Virus record (IMG/VR): IMGVR_UViG_3300001335_000566
Coordinates: 7,427 to 71,426 of that record
Strand: one strand, 5' to 3'
DNA length: 64,000 nucleotides
DNA from: a virus
Lineage: Duplodnaviria; Caudoviricetes
The position numbers and the translations under genes were made by a program. The first letter of the stretch is position 1; each line of letters starts with the position of its first letter. The notes beneath the pieces were generated by a model, which was not told the origin of the DNA, did not search any database, and was given only the letters and a program-made list of their open reading frames with translations. Positions 7,301 to 40,156 of this stretch are shown here, one piece after another.

Positions 7301-7642
7301 ATGTCACGAAAAAACATTAACCAAAAACATACTCGAATTTATTTTGATTATTTTGATCTTCCAAGTGATCAAACAACATTTATAGTATGTGAACTTTGTG
7401 GTGCAAAAGCAAACGATATACATCATATCAATGCAAGAGGAATGGGAGGAACTCAATACAATTACACTATTCAAGAATTAATGGCATTATGTTCAAAACA
7501 TCATTTAGAATATGGAGATATAAAAAAATTTAAATCATTTTTAAATTTAATGCATTTAAATTTCCTTAAAATATATAATATGAAAATTCAAGACTATGAA
7601 CATGAATTTATTCCTAATTATAAATTTCCAATAAAAAATTAA
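7301..7642 (+). CDS. HNH endonuclease family protein
   Basis: CELCG...DIHHI...LMALCSKHH zinc-bound HNH pattern. Confidence 0.8.
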   Translation: MSRKNINQKHTRIYFDYFDLPSDQTTFIVCELCGAKANDIHHINARGMGGTQYNYTIQELMALCSKHHLEYGDIKKFKSFLNLMHLNFLKIYNMKIQDYEHEFIPNYKFPIKN

Positions 7643-7645
7643 ATT

Positions 7646-7969
7646 ATGAAAGCACAACCAACAAAAATCAATGATCTCACTAATGGAGACTTAGAAAAAG
7701 CAATCAAATTATCAAGAAAATTAAAAAATCAATCTTTAATTAAATGTTTACAAAGATTAAAAAAAATTAATCATTTACACAATTACGAACATTTTATTTA
7801 TTCTGATTTTGCCCCTTATTCTTTTTATTTTATTAGAAAACTTAATAATAAATATATTATGAATGGTGGTATTATTTTTCATGGCTCTCATGATAATTTT
7901 GGCTCTGGATCTACACCAACTTTTTCAGTTACTTTAGAAAAAACAAAAGGATGGAAAATTCACACTTAA
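7646..7969 (+). CDS. DUF4120-like protein
   Basis: DFAPYSFYF...NGGIIFHG...PTFSVTL...GWKIHT matches my recollection of the Bacteroidota DUF4120 pattern. Confidence 0.55.
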   Translation: MKAQPTKINDLTNGDLEKAIKLSRKLKNQSLIKCLQRLKKINHLHNYEHFIYSDFAPYSFYFIRKLNNKYIMNGGIIFHGSHDNFGSGSTPTFSVTLEKTKGWKIHT

Positions 7970-8115
7970 ATAATGCTAAATTTATTAAAAAAGGAAATTT
8001 TTGGATATTAAATGTAGATGGTTATGAAATAGTATTTAAAGGAAATCTTAATAAAGAATATTTAGAAAATTTATATTCTAATTTAAATTATGAAATTATT
8101 AATGTTGAATCTTAA
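7951..8115 (+). CDS. hypothetical protein (54 aa, not in ORF track)
   Basis: Hand translation MENSHLNNAKFIKKGNFWILNVDGYEIVFKGNLNKEYLENLYSNLNYEIINVES fills the gap. Confidence 0.55.
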   Translation: MENSHLNNAKFIKKGNFWILNVDGYEIVFKGNLNKEYLENLYSNLNYEIINVES

Positions 8116-8126
8116 ATTTGTAAAAA

Positions 8127-8372
8127 ATGACAAAAAAAAAATTTATTTCTAAAACTGAAGAAAATTTTTTACTTGAACTTAACTTTGTTAAAACAGAATA
8201 TATTCATTATGAATTAAAAATTAAACATTTAAATATTACTTTAATTGTTACATCAGATAAGAATTTAATGATTTATCAATATCATAAATTTGATCCACAA
8301 ATAGTAAAAATTGGAAAATTTTCAATGGATAAAATAATTAATTTAATAAAAATATTAAATAAAAAACCATGA
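8127..8372 (+). CDS. hypothetical protein (81 aa)
   Basis: ORF track. Confidence 0.55.
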   Translation: MTKKKFISKTEENFLLELNFVKTEYIHYELKIKHLNITLIVTSDKNLMIYQYHKFDPQIVKIGKFSMDKIINLIKILNKKP

Positions 8373-8560
8373 AAAAAGAAAAAATATACCGTTTAATGAA
8401 TCACGATTCGCTTAACTGCGAACCAGCAAAATTCGAGGCATTCACGCTTGAGGAGTATTCCAATCAATTCGGGGTGCATTATCCTTCAATCAGCGATGCC
8501 GTTGATGCCGATTCTGAATACCTGTTTACTGAAGAGCAAATGAATGAGTTTGTCGATTAA
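8369..8560 (+). CDS. hypothetical protein (63 aa), first gene of the higher-GC island
   Basis: ORF track; GC rises from ~18% (line 8281) to ~47% (line 8401). Confidence 0.6.
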   Translation: MKKEKIYRLMNHDSLNCEPAKFEAFTLEEYSNQFGVHYPSISDAVDADSEYLFTEEQMNEFVD

Positions 8561-8568
8561 CCAGGTTT

Positions 8569-8604
8569 AAAACGCCGTCACTAAACTATTAAAAAAACAC
8601 AGCC
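8569..8604 (+). promoter_or_regulatory. repeated upstream motif copy 1 (AAAACGCCGT...TAAACTA...AAAAA..CC-ATG)
   Basis: Same motif about 27-31 nt before the ATGs at 8605, 8941 and 9715. Confidence 0.6.
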
Positions 8605-8841
8605 ATGAAAAAAAAACAGATTATTATGATTAAGTTATATAAGATTGATGAATTAGACAATGGCACAGAAAGGTTTTGTACTCAATTGCAAGTAGGGATG
8701 GGTATCGCTTCGTTTATCCGTGAAAAGGATGGTGACATGAAATTTTACAACAACGGTGAAAAGGGTTTTGGATTTTACAAATATGACAAGCCGTTTGAAA
8801 TAGTTAAAAACCTTACTGAAATGAAAATGCAGCCACTTTAA
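8605..8841 (+). CDS. hypothetical protein (78 aa)
   Basis: ORF track; preceded by the repeated motif. Confidence 0.6.
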   Translation: MKKKQIIMIKLYKIDELDNGTERFCTQLQVGMGIASFIREKDGDMKFYNNGEKGFGFYKYDKPFEIVKNLTEMKMQPL

Positions 8842-8867
8842 ACAGTTACCAAACCACTTCTATCAAC

Positions 8868-8895
8868 AGCCTTGCTTAACCGCAGGACTTTTTTT
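8868..8895 (+). terminator. probable intrinsic terminator
   Basis: AGCCTTGC-TTAACC-GCAGGACT stem (one GU pair, one mismatch) followed by a run of 7 T. Confidence 0.55.
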
Positions 8896-8900
8896 ATATC

Positions 8901-8940
8901 AAAACGCCGTATCAAATTACTAACCTTAAAAACCAAAACC
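8901..8940 (+). promoter_or_regulatory. repeated upstream motif copy 2
   Basis: AAAACGCCGTATCAAATTACTAACCTTAAAAACCAAAACC-ATG. Confidence 0.6.
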
Positions 8941-9204
8941 ATGAAAACAATACCTGAAATAAAAAAAGAAAGCGAAGCAAAGAGAAGCGCATTAATAAAC
9001 CAGTATGGGGTTTTTTTCGCATGGCTTTCATTTCCTGAAACTAAACCTAAGCAATATTCTTGGGTATTAGTAACCGTAAAAAGTCCAATTGACAAATGGG
9101 TTGAAATGGCAGGCTTTGACGGTGATAAATTCCAATTGCCTGGCAGGGGCGATACAACATTTGTAACTCACTGGATGCCTATTCCAGAACCAGCTTGTTG
9201 CTAA
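8941..9204 (+). CDS. DUF551-like protein, probably with an unrelated N-terminus (start 8941 rather than 8872)
   Basis: WLSFPETKP...THWMPIPEP is the DUF551 pattern; the motif and terminator upstream support the ATG at 8941. Confidence 0.65.
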   Translation: MKTIPEIKKESEAKRSALINQYGVFFAWLSFPETKPKQYSWVLVTVKSPIDKWVEMAGFDGDKFQLPGRGDTTFVTHWMPIPEPACC

Positions 9205-9331
9205 CGTATGGTGGTATGGTTAGTTGGGGATAAAACCGCACGAACCTATCAAATTAGTATAAACTTAATAAATTGATACAATGATGAATAACGAACAGAA
9301 ACCCCAATTAACTATACCACGGGTTACCAAC
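9197..9331 (+). mobile_element. attC-like (integron cassette-type) imperfect palindrome
   Basis: TGCTAAC (R''-like, overlaps the stop of the upstream gene), arm GTGGTATGGTTAGTTGGGG, inner hairpin, arm CCCCAATTAACTATACCAC, GTTACCA (R'-like); about 131 bp. Confidence 0.65.
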
Positions 9332-9523
9332 TGTGGTAATCCGTGGTTAAAAATTAAATGCGAAGAATGTGGGCAGCAAATATTATCTTATAAAAATTTA
9401 GGACTTGCGAGTTTCTTTCATAAAGATGACGAAGACCCTTGGAAAACTGGAATGGCATCAAGCCCTATAAGATATATTTGCGGTAAATGTTCAGATAAAC
9501 TTGGTTATGATGATGGTTATTAG
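9281..9523 (+). CDS. zinc-finger-like cassette protein (80 aa) whose start lies inside the attC-like element
   Basis: CEECG...CGKC; N-terminal MMNNEQKPQLTIPRVT is encoded by the palindrome's right arm. Confidence 0.65.
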   Translation: MMNNEQKPQLTIPRVTNCGNPWLKIKCEECGQQILSYKNLGLASFFHKDDEDPWKTGMASSPIRYICGKCSDKLGYDDGY

Positions 9524-9528
9524 CCATT

Positions 9529-9634
9529 GTTGGTAACTTGTGTATATGATAACAAAATGTTGCCAACAAAAGAGATTTGATATGGTTAAACCATTTAGTT
9601 ATGGAAAACTGCCACCAGATACACAACGATAATA
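9529..9634 (+). mobile_element. second, degenerate attC-like element
   Basis: GTTGGTAAC just after the stop at 9523; TTGTGTAT (9538) pairs with ATACACAA (9619); R' core degenerate (CGATAAT); alternative GTTGCCAAC at 9559. Confidence 0.45.
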
Positions 9635-9678
9635 TGCTTAATTTAATATAACACAGACCCCGTATTGTTGGATCAGTG

Positions 9679-9714
9679 AAACGCCGTTATTAAACTACTT
9701 TAAAAACCATACCA
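9679..9714 (+). promoter_or_regulatory. repeated upstream motif copy 3
   Basis: AAACGCCGTTATTAAACTACTTTAAAAACCATACCA-ATG. Confidence 0.6.
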
Positions 9715-10098
9715 ATGAAAACAACAATTTCAAAACAGGAAGGGATCACAAACGAAGCCGCCGAAGAAATTTTATCTGCTGCCGGCTTTCCAATGGCCGG
9801 ACTTGTAATCTACTCACTGACTTATAATCGTACCGGGTATGGACATTATGAACTTGTGGTCGAATTATGCAACTATTTTAATTTTGCAGAATCCGTTTAT
9901 CTGAGCCGCACCTCAACGGATGCTTCCTTGATTGACGATTGGGATGAAGATTTTCCGTTGCATCATGACAGACCTCAAGAAGACGCACTGTTATTCATTT
10001 TGACCCTGGATGAAAATCGTGAAGCCCTTTTATCATTTATTAATTATAAAACAAAAACCAACTCTGGCATTCAAGGTGTACCATTATCAAATTATTAA
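9715..10098 (+). CDS. hypothetical acidic protein (127 aa), last gene of the higher-GC island
   Basis: ORF track; up to 50% GC in line 9901. Confidence 0.65.
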   Translation: MKTTISKQEGITNEAAEEILSAAGFPMAGLVIYSLTYNRTGYGHYELVVELCNYFNFAESVYLSRTSTDASLIDDWDEDFPLHHDRPQEDALLFILTLDENREALLSFINYKTKTNSGIQGVPLSNY

Positions 10099-10115
10099 CT
10101 CATAAAATAAAAAAA

Positions 10116-10925
10116 ATGAAATTATTAAATACTCTTTTATCAGCAAGATGTCAAATATATATTTGGTTAAATTTATTTCCTAAAATAAACAATGCTCATA
10201 AAAAAATCTTTAAATTAGGATTTAATACAGAAAATCGTGAGTTTATTGACTCAAATTTATTTAAGAAAAAACTAAATATAAATTATGGAAGTGCCAGACC
10301 TGATATGGATAGTATTTTTCATGAAGATTGTGTTATTAAAAAAAATAATTCAATTACTATTCTTACAAAAGTAAAAAAAACACTTGGTTACGAATGGGAT
10401 GGTAAATCAATAACTAAAAATGTACAATCAGGTTTAGCATATACAGACAATATTTTTTATCCCAAGGGCCTTTATTTTGCAACTATTTTAATTGATAACA
10501 ATATGTTAGGTGCTTGGCCTGCATGGTGGTTTCTTCATGATACAAAAATAAAATATGAAGAAATTGATATGTTTGAACGATTTATATCTCCATATCCTAA
10601 ACGAAAAGATGTTACAATTTCTGTTTGGACTGGAAAGAGTTCAAAAATGGAAGACAGAAAAATGTATAATAATTCTTGTTCATTACCCAATAAAAGACCT
10701 TATATAAATTGTATGATATATTTTACTGATAAAAAAAGAATGAAGGTTTATATTAATGGTTTACTGGTTTTTATTGGAAGAAAATATTTTCCTACAGAAA
10801 AATTATCAATGCGAATAAATTCCGGATTACAAAAAAATATGTATAAATATCATTCAGTTATAAATTCTATTCAAACAAATAATCATACATTTATAGTTAA
10901 AAATTTATTTCATTATATAAAATAA
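10116..10925 (+). CDS. glycoside hydrolase family 16-like protein
   Basis: GAWPAWWFL...EEIDMFE = GH16 WPAxW plus catalytic ExDxxE. Confidence 0.75.
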   Translation: MKLLNTLLSARCQIYIWLNLFPKINNAHKKIFKLGFNTENREFIDSNLFKKKLNINYGSARPDMDSIFHEDCVIKKNNSITILTKVKKTLGYEWDGKSITKNVQSGLAYTDNIFYPKGLYFATILIDNNMLGAWPAWWFLHDTKIKYEEIDMFERFISPYPKRKDVTISVWTGKSSKMEDRKMYNNSCSLPNKRPYINCMIYFTDKKRMKVYINGLLVFIGRKYFPTEKLSMRINSGLQKNMYKYHSVINSIQTNNHTFIVKNLFHYIK

Positions 10926-10934
10926 CTTTTAATT

Positions 10935-11516
10935 ATGGCTTTCTGGACAAAAAAACAATTTGAAAATTTTGAGAACAATAGTATCAAAAACTCACACAAC
11001 TCTTATTCTATTAAAAATCCCACACAAGATGAAATTAATAAAATTTTAGAACGTCATGAATTGACCGGTCCAAATACATATTATATTCCAGGTGAAGTTC
11101 CATCATCTAAAAATTTTAAAAGAATTGCTTTTAAACCCGATAAAACTAATAAAAGTTCATGGAAATATTTACAACATGGTAAATGGATTCATGTTATACC
11201 TTTTATAGTTGCAAGTAATTTTACTGAAGTATATAAAAAATATGTTGGTCCTTATTATCAAAAATATGCATTTGATTTTAGAAATGCTTCTATTAAAAAA
11301 GGTTTTCCTGTTTATGTGGAATTTACTTTTATTCGAAAAACAAATCAAATTTGGGACTTCAATAATATTACACAAGTTGTTCAAGATTTAATGAAAGAAT
11401 ATGGATGGATTGATGATGATAATTCTCGATTTTTAATACCTATGCCTCCACAAAAACCAAAACCTGCATATCATGTAGATAAAGAAAATCCTGGTGTAAT
11501 AATAAGATTGTTATGA
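10935..11516 (+). CDS. rusA: RusA-like Holliday junction resolvase
   Basis: IPGEVPSSKN...VEFTFIRKT...WDFNNITQVVQDLM..YGWIDDDN. Confidence 0.75.
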   Translation: MAFWTKKQFENFENNSIKNSHNSYSIKNPTQDEINKILERHELTGPNTYYIPGEVPSSKNFKRIAFKPDKTNKSSWKYLQHGKWIHVIPFIVASNFTEVYKKYVGPYYQKYAFDFRNASIKKGFPVYVEFTFIRKTNQIWDFNNITQVVQDLMKEYGWIDDDNSRFLIPMPPQKPKPAYHVDKENPGVIIRLL

Positions 11517-14149: not shown

Positions 14150-14638
14150 TTAAGAAATTCTAAATATTGGATCTGTTGTGCCTTCTATTTGCATATAACC
14201 AATTCCATCATAATATTCAGGTGGATCTTCCTCGTTTAATGGTGCAAATTCTATAGCAAGATTAAATAACTGAAATATCTGTAGTATGTTTTGAATAGAA
14301 TATCCTTTACATTGAAAAACTTCTCGTATTTTTTTAGTACAATATTCTCTTATATAATAAGTAGAACCTTTATCTTTTCCTGTTTCTGAATTTAAAGCAT
14401 CAAATTCTCTTTCTTTTTGAATTAATTGTAAATATTTTAAAAGATGATGAATATCCATAATGTTTTGAGCCAAACAATAATCCTTTTTCCCAAATAAGTC
14501 CTTACCAACTATATTATCAAAGTTCTGATTTATTTCAGAATAAATAATATCCCAAAATCTTATTTCTTTTTCATCTGTTTCAGTAACATTAATGTTACCA
14601 CAACAATCCATTAAAGTTCCAAAGCTGTCAAATTCCAT
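14150..14638 (-). CDS. putative tail/virion protein (162 aa)
   Basis: Position between fibre and RNAP genes; Cys-containing. Confidence 0.4.
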   Translation of the reverse strand: MEFDSFGTLMDCCGNINVTETDEKEIRFWDIIYSEINQNFDNIVGKDLFGKKDYCLAQNIMDIHHLLKYLQLIQKEREFDALNSETGKDKGSTYYIREYCTKKIREVFQCKGYSIQNILQIFQLFNLAIEFAPLNEEDPPEYYDGIGYMQIEGTTDPIFRIS

Positions 14639-38755: not shown

Positions 38756-40156
38756 TTATGTTTTGGCTTTTCCTTTATAAATATTAATAATATCATTATT
38801 ATATAATTTTTTATATTCATCCAAATCCATAATTATAGCTGAAGCACTTTGATTTTTTCTTTCAGAAACATCAGCAACATATTTTTGACCAGTTTTTTTA
38901 TCAACTATAATAACAGCAACATGATCAATACCATATTCTCTATCATCATCCCACCCATAATTACCAGTATCTAAAAATATAATTTCTCCATCTTCTAAAT
39001 TATCAATATCATTAATATCATTTAATTGTTTTTTATCTGTAGTATAATTTTGATATATATTTTCTGATGTATCTCTTGGAATATTAAACATTTTGCAAAT
39101 AGCACCACTACAATCTAAATTAGATGTGTCTGTTTTTCCAAATTCATATTTAGAACCTTCAAATTGTTTAAATTTATTAAAAGTTTCACTTTCTATATCT
39201 AATTTGGAAAAATCAGAATAATATTTTTTTGTAGGTTCATTTGAATCTTTTGGAAGTTCTGGAGGTTCAAACTGCATGTTTACATCATTATATTCATTAA
39301 CATTTGCTATTTCAGGAACTACTCTTTTTGTCATTTCAGGAGCTACTCTTTTTGCTATTTCAGGAGATTCTATTTTTGCCATTTCAGGGATATCATATCT
39401 TTCTATTTCTGAATCATCAACATTTTCAGTGTTTTGTGAATTGAACAATCGATTTAATTGGGCTGTTGATAATCCAAAGATATTTGCAAATTGACTATTT
39501 ACTAAATTCTCTTCATTTAATTTTCCTTGTTTTAACATATTTTCAAAAACACTTGCAGAAGTAAAGTTTTCCATTGCTCTTGCACCAGTATCAACCAATC
39601 CAGCCATCGACTGTGTTTGCATTTTTTTATTTGTTGCAATAGCCTGTGAAATATAATTATCAAATTCCATTTGTCGTCTGATATTTGCATCATCAATTTG
39701 AAGATTTGTTTGATCAACAGCTTGTCTTCCTTGAATATTTGTCCTGGCAGACTCCATATAAGACGCAAGATTATTTCTACCAACATCAGTATTCAGTTTT
39801 CTTAAAGAATCTTGTCGATTTGCAATTAATCCAGGTATAACATCAGCTCTTCCAAGTTGTCTTGCGAGATTAAGACCACTAATAAATCCTTTATCAACTT
39901 CCCGTTGTTCAGGACCAGCCGTTTGTAACAATGGAGATACTGGTGAATATTTAAGCCTTTTTATATTATCAGGTCGTGGAGCGTTTCTGTTTCTTCTTTC
40001 ATCATTAATAGCAATTAACAGATTAGCTGTGTCATTGATAGCACTTAGTCCACCTGTAATACCAAGACCTATTCGATAATTTTTAAATATCTTTTCTTGG
40101 TTTTTATCAAGTTCTGTTTGTAAATCATTCATAATAATATCGTTTTTTATATTCAA
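38756..40156 (-). CDS. ejected virion protein with C-terminal NlpC/P60 peptidoglycan hydrolase
   Basis: DCSGAICKMF...GIDHVAVI (catalytic Cys/His); hydrophobic N-terminal segment; central 8-aa repeats. Confidence 0.7.
   Translation of the reverse strand: MNIKNDIIMNDLQTELDKNQEKIFKNYRIGLGITGGLSAINDTANLLIAINDERRNRNAPRPDNIKRLKYSPVSPLLQTAGPEQREVDKGFISGLNLARQLGRADVIPGLIANRQDSLRKLNTDVGRNNLASYMESARTNIQGRQAVDQTNLQIDDANIRRQMEFDNYISQAIATNKKMQTQSMAGLVDTGARAMENFTSASVFENMLKQGKLNEENLVNSQFANIFGLSTAQLNRLFNSQNTENVDDSEIERYDIPEMAKIESPEIAKRVAPEMTKRVVPEIANVNEYNDVNMQFEPPELPKDSNEPTKKYYSDFSKLDIESETFNKFKQFEGSKYEFGKTDTSNLDCSGAICKMFNIPRDTSENIYQNYTTDKKQLNDINDIDNLEDGEIIFLDTGNYGWDDDREYGIDHVAVIIVDKKTGQKYVADVSERKNQSASAIIMDLDEYKKLYNNDIINIYKGKAKT
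39301..39390 (-). repeat. 24-nt tandem repeat, ~4 copies (PE[MI][AT]KxxA-like)
   Basis: ATTTCAGG recurs every 24 nt; protein PEMAKIES/PEIAKRVA/PEMTKRVV/PEIANVNE. Confidence 0.8.

What the first reader, a model, noticed from the sequence alone, without database searches (positions are those of the whole stretch)
9197..9537. Integron-like gene cassette (attC-type sites) in a lytic crAss-like phage
Seen: a ~131-bp imperfect palindrome begins at the stop codon of the upstream gene: TGCTAAC, arm GTGGTATGGTTAGTTGGGG, arm CCCCAATTAACTATACCAC, then GTTACCA. Its right core GTTACCAAC (9323-9331) mismatches its own left core (GTTGCTAAC) at one base, but is the perfect reverse complement of GTTGGTAAC (9529-9537) just after the next gene's stop; the match extends to 12/15 nt. 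Known: this is the signature of integron cassettes, where crossover at G/TT leaves each cassette's ends self-complementary. The enclosed 80-aa zinc-finger gene also takes its start codon and first ~15 residues from the palindrome's right arm. No tyrosine recombinase is in the window, and the arm spacing differs from canonical proteobacterial attC. Inference: the phage captures or shuffles Bacteroidota-type cassettes using a host or remote integrase, an integrase-less cassette array (CALIN-like) acting as a phage accessory-gene acquisition system.
Basis: partly seen in the sequence, partly recalled or inferred. Interest (0 to 1): 0.8.

Follow-up and report, generated by a model that had tools for sequence, protein, structure and literature searches.

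The report
Hairpin-headed mobile gene cassette in phage
The palindrome is the folded-DNA recombination site at the head of a small mobile gene cassette that this crAss-like phage acquired from an integron-like gene-swapping system common in phages of Flavobacteria-type bacteria; the sites, gene orientation and enzyme of that system differ from classical integrons.

Summary
It is a 19-bp imperfect palindrome (9211-9229 / 9302-9320) between a TAAC core (9202-9205) and a GTTA core (9323-9326). The box after the right core (9323-9334) is complementary to the box after the next stop codon (9526-9537).

It is one member of a large family. The exact 20-nt left arm occurs in 34 viral contigs. About 76 other stem sequences share the same layout and show strong covariation. 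Elements form co-oriented arrays, and cassette ends match each other rather than their own site.

The window's unit, 9206-9537, recurs at 86-90% identity in four metagenome contigs. Homology stops exactly at the AAC cores, with four different right flanks.

It differs from classical integrons in three ways:
- The hairpin sits in front of its gene and supplies the start codon and leader.
- The sense strand folds better.
- Arrays elsewhere end in an attI-like site beside a 276-278-aa Xer-like recombinase that fails the IntI threshold.

This phage encodes no recombinase and has one intact site, so it is a solitary imported cassette, not an array.

The scan has reported this system before on other DNA (at least eight notes). 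One published site (Polaribacter phage P12002L_attC1) belongs to it. I found no paper describing the system.

The parts
9194..9205 (+). End box (R''-type, CTTGTTGCTAAC) of the upstream DUF551-like gene. Its TAA stop (9202-9204) lies inside the invariant TAAC left core. The left junction of the cassette is after 9205.
   Evidence: The same box precedes another hairpin in L043. Homology with L080 and L083 starts just after this box.
9206..9210 (+). Left unpaired spacer, GTATG. In the family this is G plus 2-4 nt.
9211..9229 (+). Left arm of the hairpin.
   Evidence: I1. The 20-mer GGTGGTATGGTTAGTTGGGG has exact copies in 34 viral and 7 MAG stretches.
9230..9301 (+). 72-nt loop. It holds the conserved motif CCTATCAAATTAGTA..AAACTTAATAAAT, the start codon (9281) and the first seven codons.
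9302..9320 (+). Right arm of the hairpin, which is also codons 8-13 of the ORF.
   Evidence: stem 90% paired; 17 of 19 pairs show changes on both sides.
9323..9334 (+). Right core GTTA plus the cassette-specific box (R'-type, GTTACCAACTGT). GTT is read as Val15.
9281..9523 (+). Cargo ORF of 80 aa: a hairpin-encoded leader (MMNNEQKPQLTIPRV) followed by a CxxC...CxxC zinc-ribbon protein of unknown function.
   Evidence: Homologues at 84-88% identity carry four different leaders.
9526..9537 (+). End box of the cassette (R''-type, ATTGTTGGTAAC), complementary to 9323-9334. The right junction is after 9537.
   Evidence: Four different sequences follow CCATTGTTGGTAAC in the window, L080, L081 and L082.
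9538..9570 (+). Hairpin-less remnant or attI-like half-site. TTGTGTATATGATAAC resembles the motif between the last cassette and the recombinase gene elsewhere. GTTGCCAACAA (9559-9569) can pair with 9527-9537.
   Evidence: The motif match is weak (4 matches in the window against 1.4 expected) and the covariance model does not detect this stretch.
9316..9347 (+). Local hairpin (14-nt arms, 4-nt loop) that overlaps the right arm and right core and competes with the main stem. It was not seen in the other loci I read.
   Evidence: I15.
8370..10100 (.). GC-rich island (32-41% GC in a background of about 20%) that contains the cassette and four other small genes.
   Evidence: The median GC of element-bearing loci is 35%.

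Best explanation
Window 9206-9537 is a mobile gene cassette of an integron-like system found in phages of Flavobacteriia-type Bacteroidota.

Each cassette is headed by a site defined by structure rather than sequence. The layout is a TAAC core, an unpaired spacer of G plus 2-4 nt, a stem of about 19 bp with G.T pairs at fixed positions, a loop, the second arm, 1-2 nt, and a GTTA core. A private box of about 8 nt after GTTA is complementary to the box at the cassette's 3' end.

Shown here:
- The family exists and is widespread.
- Its stems covary.
- Cassette ends match each other rather than their own site.
- The junctions lie at AAC.
- The hairpin travels with the gene downstream of it.
- In other phages, arrays lie next to a compact Xer/IntI-related tyrosine recombinase.

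Inferred:
- The sense strand folds when it is single-stranded, for example during replication.
- The recombinase exchanges one strand at the 5' AAC box, between two hairpins or between a hairpin and an attI-like site (TAAC|TATTATATG...) just upstream of the recombinase gene.
- The geometry is that of an integron with the cargo genes and the recombinase gene placed on the folded strand. The site therefore ends up in front of its gene, and in the long-loop class it supplies the start codon and a roughly 15-residue leader.

In this crAss-like phage the cassette is solitary. It carries a zinc-ribbon gene, lies in an imported GC-rich island, and has no recombinase in the genome. It was therefore acquired either in trans, through a co-infecting phage or host enzyme, or together with the island.
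For: 1. Family membership. The exact left arm occurs in 34 viral stretches. Conservation begins at TAAC and ends at GTTA, and the flanks are unrelated.
2. Structure rather than sequence. There are 76 distinct arms; the stem is 90% paired; 17 of 19 pairs change on both sides; the covariation score is 0.54 against 0.17 when shuffled and 0.11-0.15 when slid. L080 carries a compensating core change, TAGC...GCTA.
3. Matched cassette ends. At positions 5-10 after GTT, complementarity to the next element's end box is 0.85-0.48. It is 0.20-0.44 for an element's own box and 0.27-0.37 for random pairs. Neighbouring hairpins usually have unrelated stems.
4. Junctions. Window 9208-9537 matches L080 at 88%, and L081 and L082 end at the same base, with four different right flanks. 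Several different cassette ends join the same TAAC|TATTATATGTAAAC... sequence about 75 nt before the recombinase gene in the L057-L066 group.
5. The hairpin belongs to the downstream gene. Same-head pairs share downstream only in 18 cases and upstream only in none. In L037 a unit is repeated three times, each time followed by a different hairpin. L038 and L043 share one unit.
6. Recombinase link. Among 29 loci fetched through a 278-aa recombinase, 20 hold elements. In those with upstream sequence, the arrays lie upstream of the gene and on its strand; four related loci also have one weak hit downstream. Shuffled sequence gives none.
7. Strand asymmetry. G.T plus T.G pairs number 172 against 23 A.C plus C.A. 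The + strand folds 1-5 kcal/mol better as DNA.
8. Cargo. Eight of ten larger cassette ORFs are DNA methyltransferases.
Against: - No recombination was observed; the mechanism is inferred from comparative anatomy.
- Only 4 of 32 records that carry the window's hairpin family have any tyrosine recombinase, and three of the five records at least 90% complete have none. The enzyme may be different or host-encoded.
- The same cargo occurs with four different leaders, and the same head occurs with many cargos. Exchange therefore also happens at or near the GTT side, which a single crossover point does not explain.
- L081 has a chimeric head broken within the loop, so ordinary recombination also acts on these elements.
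- The G.T asymmetry would also fit folding of the mRNA.
- My element scans required pairing, so part of the covariation signal is built in.
- The window has only one intact site.
Confidence: 0.7

Rival explanations
1. It is a PeSL-like regulatory module. The element would be a portable stem-loop with expression signals, and genes would be shuffled by ordinary homologous recombination between repeated copies, as proposed for promoter-early stem-loops of T4-type phages.
For: - The loop carries a conserved motif and the start codon.
- The same roughly 125-nt head sits at over 85% identity in front of many unrelated genes.
- One chimeric head is broken inside the loop (L081).
- PeSLs are documented (PMC2839356 and PMC4122927).
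Against: - Adjacent hairpins in arrays have unrelated stems, yet cassette ends still match.
- Junctions fall at the 3-4-nt core, not within the homologous body.
- Arrays are tied to a tyrosine recombinase and a non-palindromic terminal site.
- The simple sigma-70 consensus scan gave no more promoter-like sites in 8300-10200 than in shuffled sequence, though it does not model Bacteroidota promoters.
Confidence: 0.12
2. It is an RNA element only. The stem would form in the mRNA and control translation, processing or stability of the downstream gene, and the modular distribution would reflect selection for that leader.
For: - The mismatches are G.U on the sense strand, and one wobble is nearly invariant (44 of 47).
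- The RNA fold has z = -3.97.
- The stem encloses the start codon and the early codons.
Against: - An RNA role does not explain end boxes complementary across a whole gene.
- It does not explain homology breaks exactly at AAC with four different flanks.
- It does not explain the recombinase linkage.
- There is no Rfam match.
- An RNA role could coexist with the DNA role.
Confidence: 0.08
3. It is a classical integron attC site, a CALIN fragment recombined by a standard integron integrase (IntI) of the host.
For: - It has AAC/GTT cores, an imperfect palindrome and matched cassette ends.
- CALINs in virulent phages have been published, including Polaribacter phage P12002L, with DNA methyltransferase cassettes (PMC9892861).
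Against: - The site precedes its gene and the sense strand folds better.
- The recombinase beside arrays scores 172 bits on TIGR02249 against a cut-off of 265, in two stretches, and is 276-278 aa long.
- P12002L_attC1, which has this layout, was the one site of six not verified with IntI1.
- I ran no test for IntI genes in the element-bearing records beyond the general tyrosine recombinase search.
Confidence: 0.05
4. It is a single-strand transposition element of the IS200/IS605 type, moved by an HUH (Y1) transposase that recognises subterminal hairpins.
For: It is a hairpin next to a short fixed tetranucleotide (TAAC, TTAC-like).
Against: - No Y1 transposase is present in the record.
- There is one large hairpin per unit rather than two small terminal ones.
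- The arrays lie beside a tyrosine recombinase.
Confidence: 0.02

Closest known systems
Classical integrons (IntI, attI, attC cassettes), including CALINs reported in virulent phages (Qi et al. 2023, PMC9892861)
   Same: - Sites are defined by a folded imperfect palindrome with invariant AAC/GTT cores and variable stems.
- Cassettes are single-gene, co-oriented and arranged in arrays.
- The two ends of a cassette derive from one site.
- A non-palindromic site beside a tyrosine recombinase of the Xer/IntI group marks one end of the array.
- Phage cassettes often encode DNA methyltransferases.
- P12002L_attC1 of that paper has the same layout as this family.
   Different: - The site lies 5' of its gene and provides the start codon and leader.
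- The sense strand is the better folder, with fixed G.T pairs rather than extrahelical bases.
- The recombinase gene is co-oriented and downstream of the array. It is 276-278 aa long and scores below the IntI family threshold.
- P12002L_attC1 was not verified to recombine with IntI1.
- In this window there is one site only and no recombinase.
PeSLs (promoter-early stem-loops) of T4-type phages (PMC2839356, PMC4122927)
   Same: These are short conserved stem-loop modules that flank small accessory genes in variable regions of lytic phages and are proposed to mediate modular gene shuffling.
   Different: PeSL shuffling is proposed to run on sequence homology between copies. Here the stems are unrelated between neighbours, the junctions lie at a 3-4-nt core, the cassette ends are complementary, and a recombinase is associated.
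CTX-phi and other elements that exploit Xer recombinases
   Same: A folded single-stranded hairpin presents a recombination site to a Xer-type tyrosine recombinase, which exchanges one strand.
   Different: That case concerns integration of a whole filamentous phage at the chromosomal dif site, not arrays of gene cassettes. No dif-like target was tested here.

Membership tests
Classical integron attC / CALIN | An imperfect palindrome with inverse core ...AAC and core GTT..., whose structure is conserved and whose sequence varies. | tested here: met
Classical integron attC / CALIN | The 5' end of a cassette is complementary to the inverse core region at its own 3' end. | tested here: met
   (next element 0.85-0.48 against own 0.20-0.44). 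In the window, 9323-9334 pairs with 9526-9537.
Classical integron attC / CALIN | The attC lies 3' of its ORF, and the bottom (antisense) strand is the recombinogenic fold, marked by extrahelical bases. | tested here: not met
   The hairpin is linked to the downstream gene, 18 to 0. The start codon lies in the loop. The sense strand has 172 wobbles against 23 and folds better.
Classical integron attC / CALIN | An integron integrase (IntI, with its additional domain) is the associated recombinase. | tested here: not met
   None is present in the record. The recombinase beside arrays scores 162-173 bits on TIGR02249 against a cut-off of 265, in two stretches. Its best matches are XerA-type.
Classical integron attC / CALIN | CALIN: at least two attC sites close together and no integrase. 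| tested here: not met
   The window has one intact site by both the scan and the covariance model. The second site is a hairpin-less remnant.
Classical integron attC / CALIN | The site is recombined by IntI at G|TT. | not testable with these tools
   Literature only. P12002L_attC1, of this layout, was the exception that was not verified with IntI1.
Hairpin-headed cassette system of Bacteroidota phages (not found described in the literature searched) | The layout: TAAC, then G plus 2-4 nt, a stem of about 19 bp with fixed G.T pairs, a loop of about 33 or 71 nt, 1-2 nt, then GTTA. | tested here: met
   The covariance model scores the window site at 108.7 bits.
Hairpin-headed cassette system of Bacteroidota phages (not found described in the literature searched) | The same unit occurs in different genomic contexts, with junctions at AAC. 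| tested here: met
   (window, L080, L081, L082, L083).
Hairpin-headed cassette system of Bacteroidota phages (not found described in the literature searched) | A co-oriented array ends in an attI-like site next to a compact Xer-like recombinase. | tested here: not met
   This holds in other phages. The window has neither an array nor a recombinase, so this copy is an orphan.
PeSL-type modules | Exchange occurs through sequence homology between repeated stem-loop and promoter copies. | tested here: not met
   Neighbouring stems are unrelated, and junctions lie at the core.

The most novel reading that the evidence does not exclude
These hairpins may define a second, mirror-image kind of integron that operates mainly in lytic phages of Bacteroidota. 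The sense strand would fold. Each site would head its gene and give it a start codon and a common leader. A compact Xer-like recombinase would insert cassettes at an attI-like site just upstream of its own gene. The pool would largely trade DNA methyltransferases and other counter-defence genes between unrelated phages, reaching even crAss-like phages that lack the enzyme.
Probability: 0.55. Interest if true: 0.85.

Novelty: new variant of a known kind. Interest (0 to 1): 0.7.

Why it matters
Integrons are seen as bacterial devices for capturing genes. Their presence in phages has been reported only as a few classical-looking fragments.

Here a structurally distinct version appears to be widespread in phage contigs. 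Its cassettes are self-expressing, and in the sample I tested they are mostly DNA methyltransferases.

If the mechanism holds, it gives lytic phages a site-specific route to exchange anti-restriction and other accessory genes. That would help explain compositional islands such as the one in this crAss-like genome. It would also offer a compact recombinase and hairpin pair that could be tested as a tool.

Standard attC finders are tuned to proteobacterial sites and would largely miss these elements.

Tried and rejected
- **Close relatives of this phage.** Searches with the flanking proteins 10116-10925 and 10935-11516 found nothing, and blastn of the island against the phage collection found nothing. 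Gain or loss within the phage's own lineage could not be examined.
- **Island neighbours.** The 127-aa gene (9715-10098) has no relatives in viral contigs. The DUF551-like gene has only weak ones. I could not show that these neighbours are cassettes.
- **Rfam.** There is no meaningful match in 8000-10500.
- **More sites in the window.** The covariance model with filters off found none. A weak full-length hit at 8743-8856 (10.1 bits, E about 4) ends on GTTACC at 8845 and is not significant.
- **attI-like reading of 9538-9553.** The motif is barely above chance in this AT-rich window, so I keep it only as a possibility.
- **Chromosomal occurrence of the recombinase.** The genome collection gave only short MAG contigs, so I cannot confirm earlier notes that bacterial chromosomes carry the system.
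- **Other enzyme families.** No serine recombinase or Y1 transposase is present in the record.
- **Promoter in the loop.** The simple sigma-70 scan gave no enrichment. A Bacteroidota-type -7 box (TAnnTTTG) appears only on the opposite strand of TATCAAATTA. The promoter role of the loop remains unproven.

Full report
**What is in the window.**
- The gene 8941-9204 (DUF551-like) ends TGT TGC TAA, and its stop codon lies inside TAAC (9202-9205).
- After a 5-nt spacer comes a 19-nt arm (9211-9229), a 72-nt loop and the complementary arm (9302-9320).
- Two further bases are followed by GTTA (9323-9326).
- Both mismatches in the stem are G.T on the + strand.
- The 80-aa ORF 9281-9523 starts in the loop, reads the right arm as codons 8-13 and reads GTT as Val15.
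- The 12 nt from 9323 (GTTACCAACTGT) pair with 9526-9537 (ATTGTTGGTAAC), which lies three bases after the ORF's stop codon. There are 10 Watson-Crick pairs and one G.T.

The + strand folds as a complete hairpin, including the TAAC/GTTA box, both as RNA (z = -3.97) and as DNA.

**It is one copy of a large family.**
A search with the 80-aa protein returned four viral contigs that share only the element and the first 12-17 residues, followed by different genes.

The exact 20-nt left arm occurs in 34 viral stretches, in contigs of 5 to 362 kb, and in seven short MAG contigs, five of them named Lutibacter, Flavobacterium or Bacteroidetes. In an alignment of 29 copies, conservation starts at TAAC and stops at GTTA, and the flanks are unrelated.

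I then scanned for the layout itself: AAC, a short spacer, a stem, a loop, the second arm, 1-4 nt and GTT.
- It found 130 hits in these loci against 4 in shuffled sequence.
- The hits include 76 distinct arm sequences and loop classes of roughly 33 and 71 nt.
- On 47 diverse long-loop elements the stem is 90% paired, and 17 of 19 pairs change on both sides.
- The covariation score is 0.54, against 0.17 for shuffles and 0.11-0.15 for slid partners. One G.U pair is present in 44 of 47.

The scan required pairing, so part of this signal is built in. The shuffled controls argue against chance. So does a natural double change of the core in L080 (TAGC...GCTA in place of TAAC...GTTA).

**The elements bound cassettes.**
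Within a locus the elements are co-oriented and 200-1700 nt apart, with up to seven in a row.

The box after GTT of one element is complementary to the box before AAC of the next element. At positions 5-10 the values are 0.85, 0.65, 0.67, 0.67, 0.65 and 0.48 (n = 48). Complementarity to an element's own box is 0.20-0.44 (n = 85), and to random boxes 0.27-0.37. Neighbouring elements usually have unrelated stems. The matched ends therefore cannot come from crossing over inside a shared repeat. They point to exchange at the short conserved core.

**The window's own cassette is mobile.**
The metagenome search gave four contigs with the same zinc-ribbon gene.
- Homology to the window runs over 9208-9537 in L080 (88%).
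- It ends at 9537 in L081 and L082 as well.
- After the identical CCATTGTTGGTAAC, the four sequences differ completely.
- In L081 and L082 the next thing is a short hairpin. The one in L081 is nearly the same as the published P12002L_attC1.
- The left flanks also differ between the window, L080 and L083.

The unit it defines is 9206-9537, not 9324 to about 9630.

**The hairpin belongs to the gene downstream of it.**
- Among pairs of elements with the same head in different contexts, 18 share the downstream sequence only and none share the upstream sequence only.
- In L037 a unit of hairpin plus a 55-aa gene is repeated three times, each time followed by a different hairpin.
- L038 and L043 share exactly one element plus its gene, up to the next AAC.

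The start codon and leader are therefore the cassette's own. Among long-loop elements, 32 have a loop ATG in frame with GTT and an ORF running on, 10 use another frame and 20 have none.

Heads are also exchanged. Homologues of the window's cargo, at 84-88% identity, carry four different N-terminal leaders. L081 has a chimeric head broken in the loop.

**The enzyme.**
The record, 71 kb and estimated 84% complete, has no tyrosine recombinase, serine recombinase or Y1 transposase. Only 4 of 32 records with the window's hairpin family have a tyrosine recombinase. In L037, however, a 278-aa one follows the six-element array directly.

I used that protein as bait and fetched 29 further viral loci that were not selected for hairpins.
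- Twenty of them contain elements, against none in shuffled sequence.
- Where upstream sequence is available, the arrays lie upstream of the recombinase gene and on its strand. Four related loci also show one weak hit downstream.
- Between the last cassette and the gene lies a conserved non-palindromic sequence. In the L057-L066 group it reads TAAC|TATTATATGTAAAC and lies about 75 nt before the ATG. Several different cassette ends are joined to it in otherwise homologous loci.

This places a junction immediately after AAC and looks like an attI.

The protein is of the Xer/IntI group. It scores 198 bits on XerA (cut-off 220) and 162-173 bits on the integron-integrase model (cut-off 265), the latter in two stretches. 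Its best solved relatives are XerA, followed by VchIntIA in two stretches. It does not qualify as IntI.

**Strand and geometry.**
On the sense strand, 172 of the non-Watson-Crick stem pairs are G.T or T.G and only 23 are A.C or C.A. DNA folding favours the sense strand by 1-5 kcal/mol. The covariance model scores the window's site at 108.7 bits on the + strand and 17.7 bits on the other.

Taken together with the AAC junction and the attI-like site at the 3' end of arrays, the geometry equals that of an integron viewed along its folded strand. The difference is that the cargo genes and the recombinase gene lie on that strand. This step is inference. The asymmetry would equally fit an additional role of the stem in the mRNA.

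**Cargo and context.**
Eight of ten larger cassette ORFs tested are N6/N4 or C5 DNA methyltransferases, and their Pfam domain starts after the hairpin-encoded leader. The window's cargo is a small CxxC...CxxC protein with only weak zinc-ribbon matches.

The cassette lies in a 1.7-kb island of 32-41% GC within a region of about 20% GC. Element-bearing loci have a median GC of 35%.

The phage is a distant crAss-like one. It has a 6663-aa ORF, and its portal protein matches only crAss-like phages, at about 22% identity.

After 9537 there is no second hairpin. TTGTGTATATGATAAC resembles the attI-like motif, and GTTGCCAACAA (9559-9569) can pair with the end box. This match is weak.

**Literature and earlier notes.**
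Qi et al. 2023 (PMC9892861) reported CALINs in virulent phages, among them Polaribacter phage P12002L with methyltransferase cassettes.
- Their P12002L_attC1 has exactly this layout.
- It was predicted by HattCI only, and it was the one site of six not verified to recombine with IntI1.
- My scans find two long-loop and three short-type sites in that genome. The three short ones precede methyltransferase and Mom-like genes.

PeSLs of T4-type phages are the nearest phage analogue. They are proposed to work by homology.

Full-text searches found no description of a hairpin-headed system linked to a Xer-like recombinase.

The scan's own notebook shows that the same system was reported at least eight times on other genomes. 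I used those notes as leads. I tested the recombinase link, the strand bias, the head position and the position-11 wobble myself.

**Verdict.**
This is a solitary, imported member of an integron-like cassette system that differs from classical integrons in site polarity, gene orientation and enzyme. The recombination mechanism remains inferred.

Noticed in passing
window 8370-10100: This is a GC-rich island (32-41% GC against about 20% around it) holding five small genes. It is probably imported from phages of higher GC content.
   Followed up: partly
window 8569-8607, 8903-8943, 9679-9717: Three island genes (starting at 8605, 8941 and 9715) are each preceded by AAACGCCGT about 36 nt before the ATG, followed by an A-rich stretch (..TTAAAAACCA.. 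in two of the three). The leader is conserved and has no stem. The hairpin cassette sits between the second and third of these genes.
   Followed up: partly
window 8910-8922, 9247-9259, 10085-10097: The motif TATCAAATTAnTA lies 31-34 nt before three start codons, one of them inside the hairpin loop. Its reverse complement contains a Bacteroidota-type -7 box (TAATTTG). Its function is unknown.
   Followed up: no
window 9316-9347: A tight local hairpin (14-nt arms) overlaps the right arm and the GTTA core. It competes with the main stem in DNA folds of the + strand.
   Followed up: no
L080:4915-5045: A copy of the window's cassette has both cores changed in a compensating way: TAGC on the left and GCTA on the right. 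This supports pairing of the two cores.
   Followed up: partly
L081:900-1010: This head is chimeric. The left half comes from another hairpin family and the right half from the window's family, joined in the conserved loop motif. The stem can no longer form.
   Followed up: no
L037:2372-4214: A 330-nt unit (a hairpin plus a 55-aa gene, MDRTKEQ...) is repeated three times in a six-element array that ends next to a 278-aa tyrosine recombinase.
   Followed up: partly
L057-L066, about 75 nt upstream of the recombinase start: A conserved non-palindromic sequence, TAAC|TATTATATGTAAAC..., is joined to different cassette ends. It is a candidate attI-like site.
   Followed up: partly
L076 (Polaribacter phage P12002L) 32224-32280, 38036-38089, 38880-38935 (- strand); 14503-14624 (+), 39123-39244 (-): This cultured lytic phage carries several sites of this family, three of them in front of methyltransferase and Mom-like genes. 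It would suit experiments.
   Followed up: partly
window 7301-7642 and 7646-7969: An HNH endonuclease-like gene and a DUF4120 gene lie just upstream of the island.
   Followed up: no
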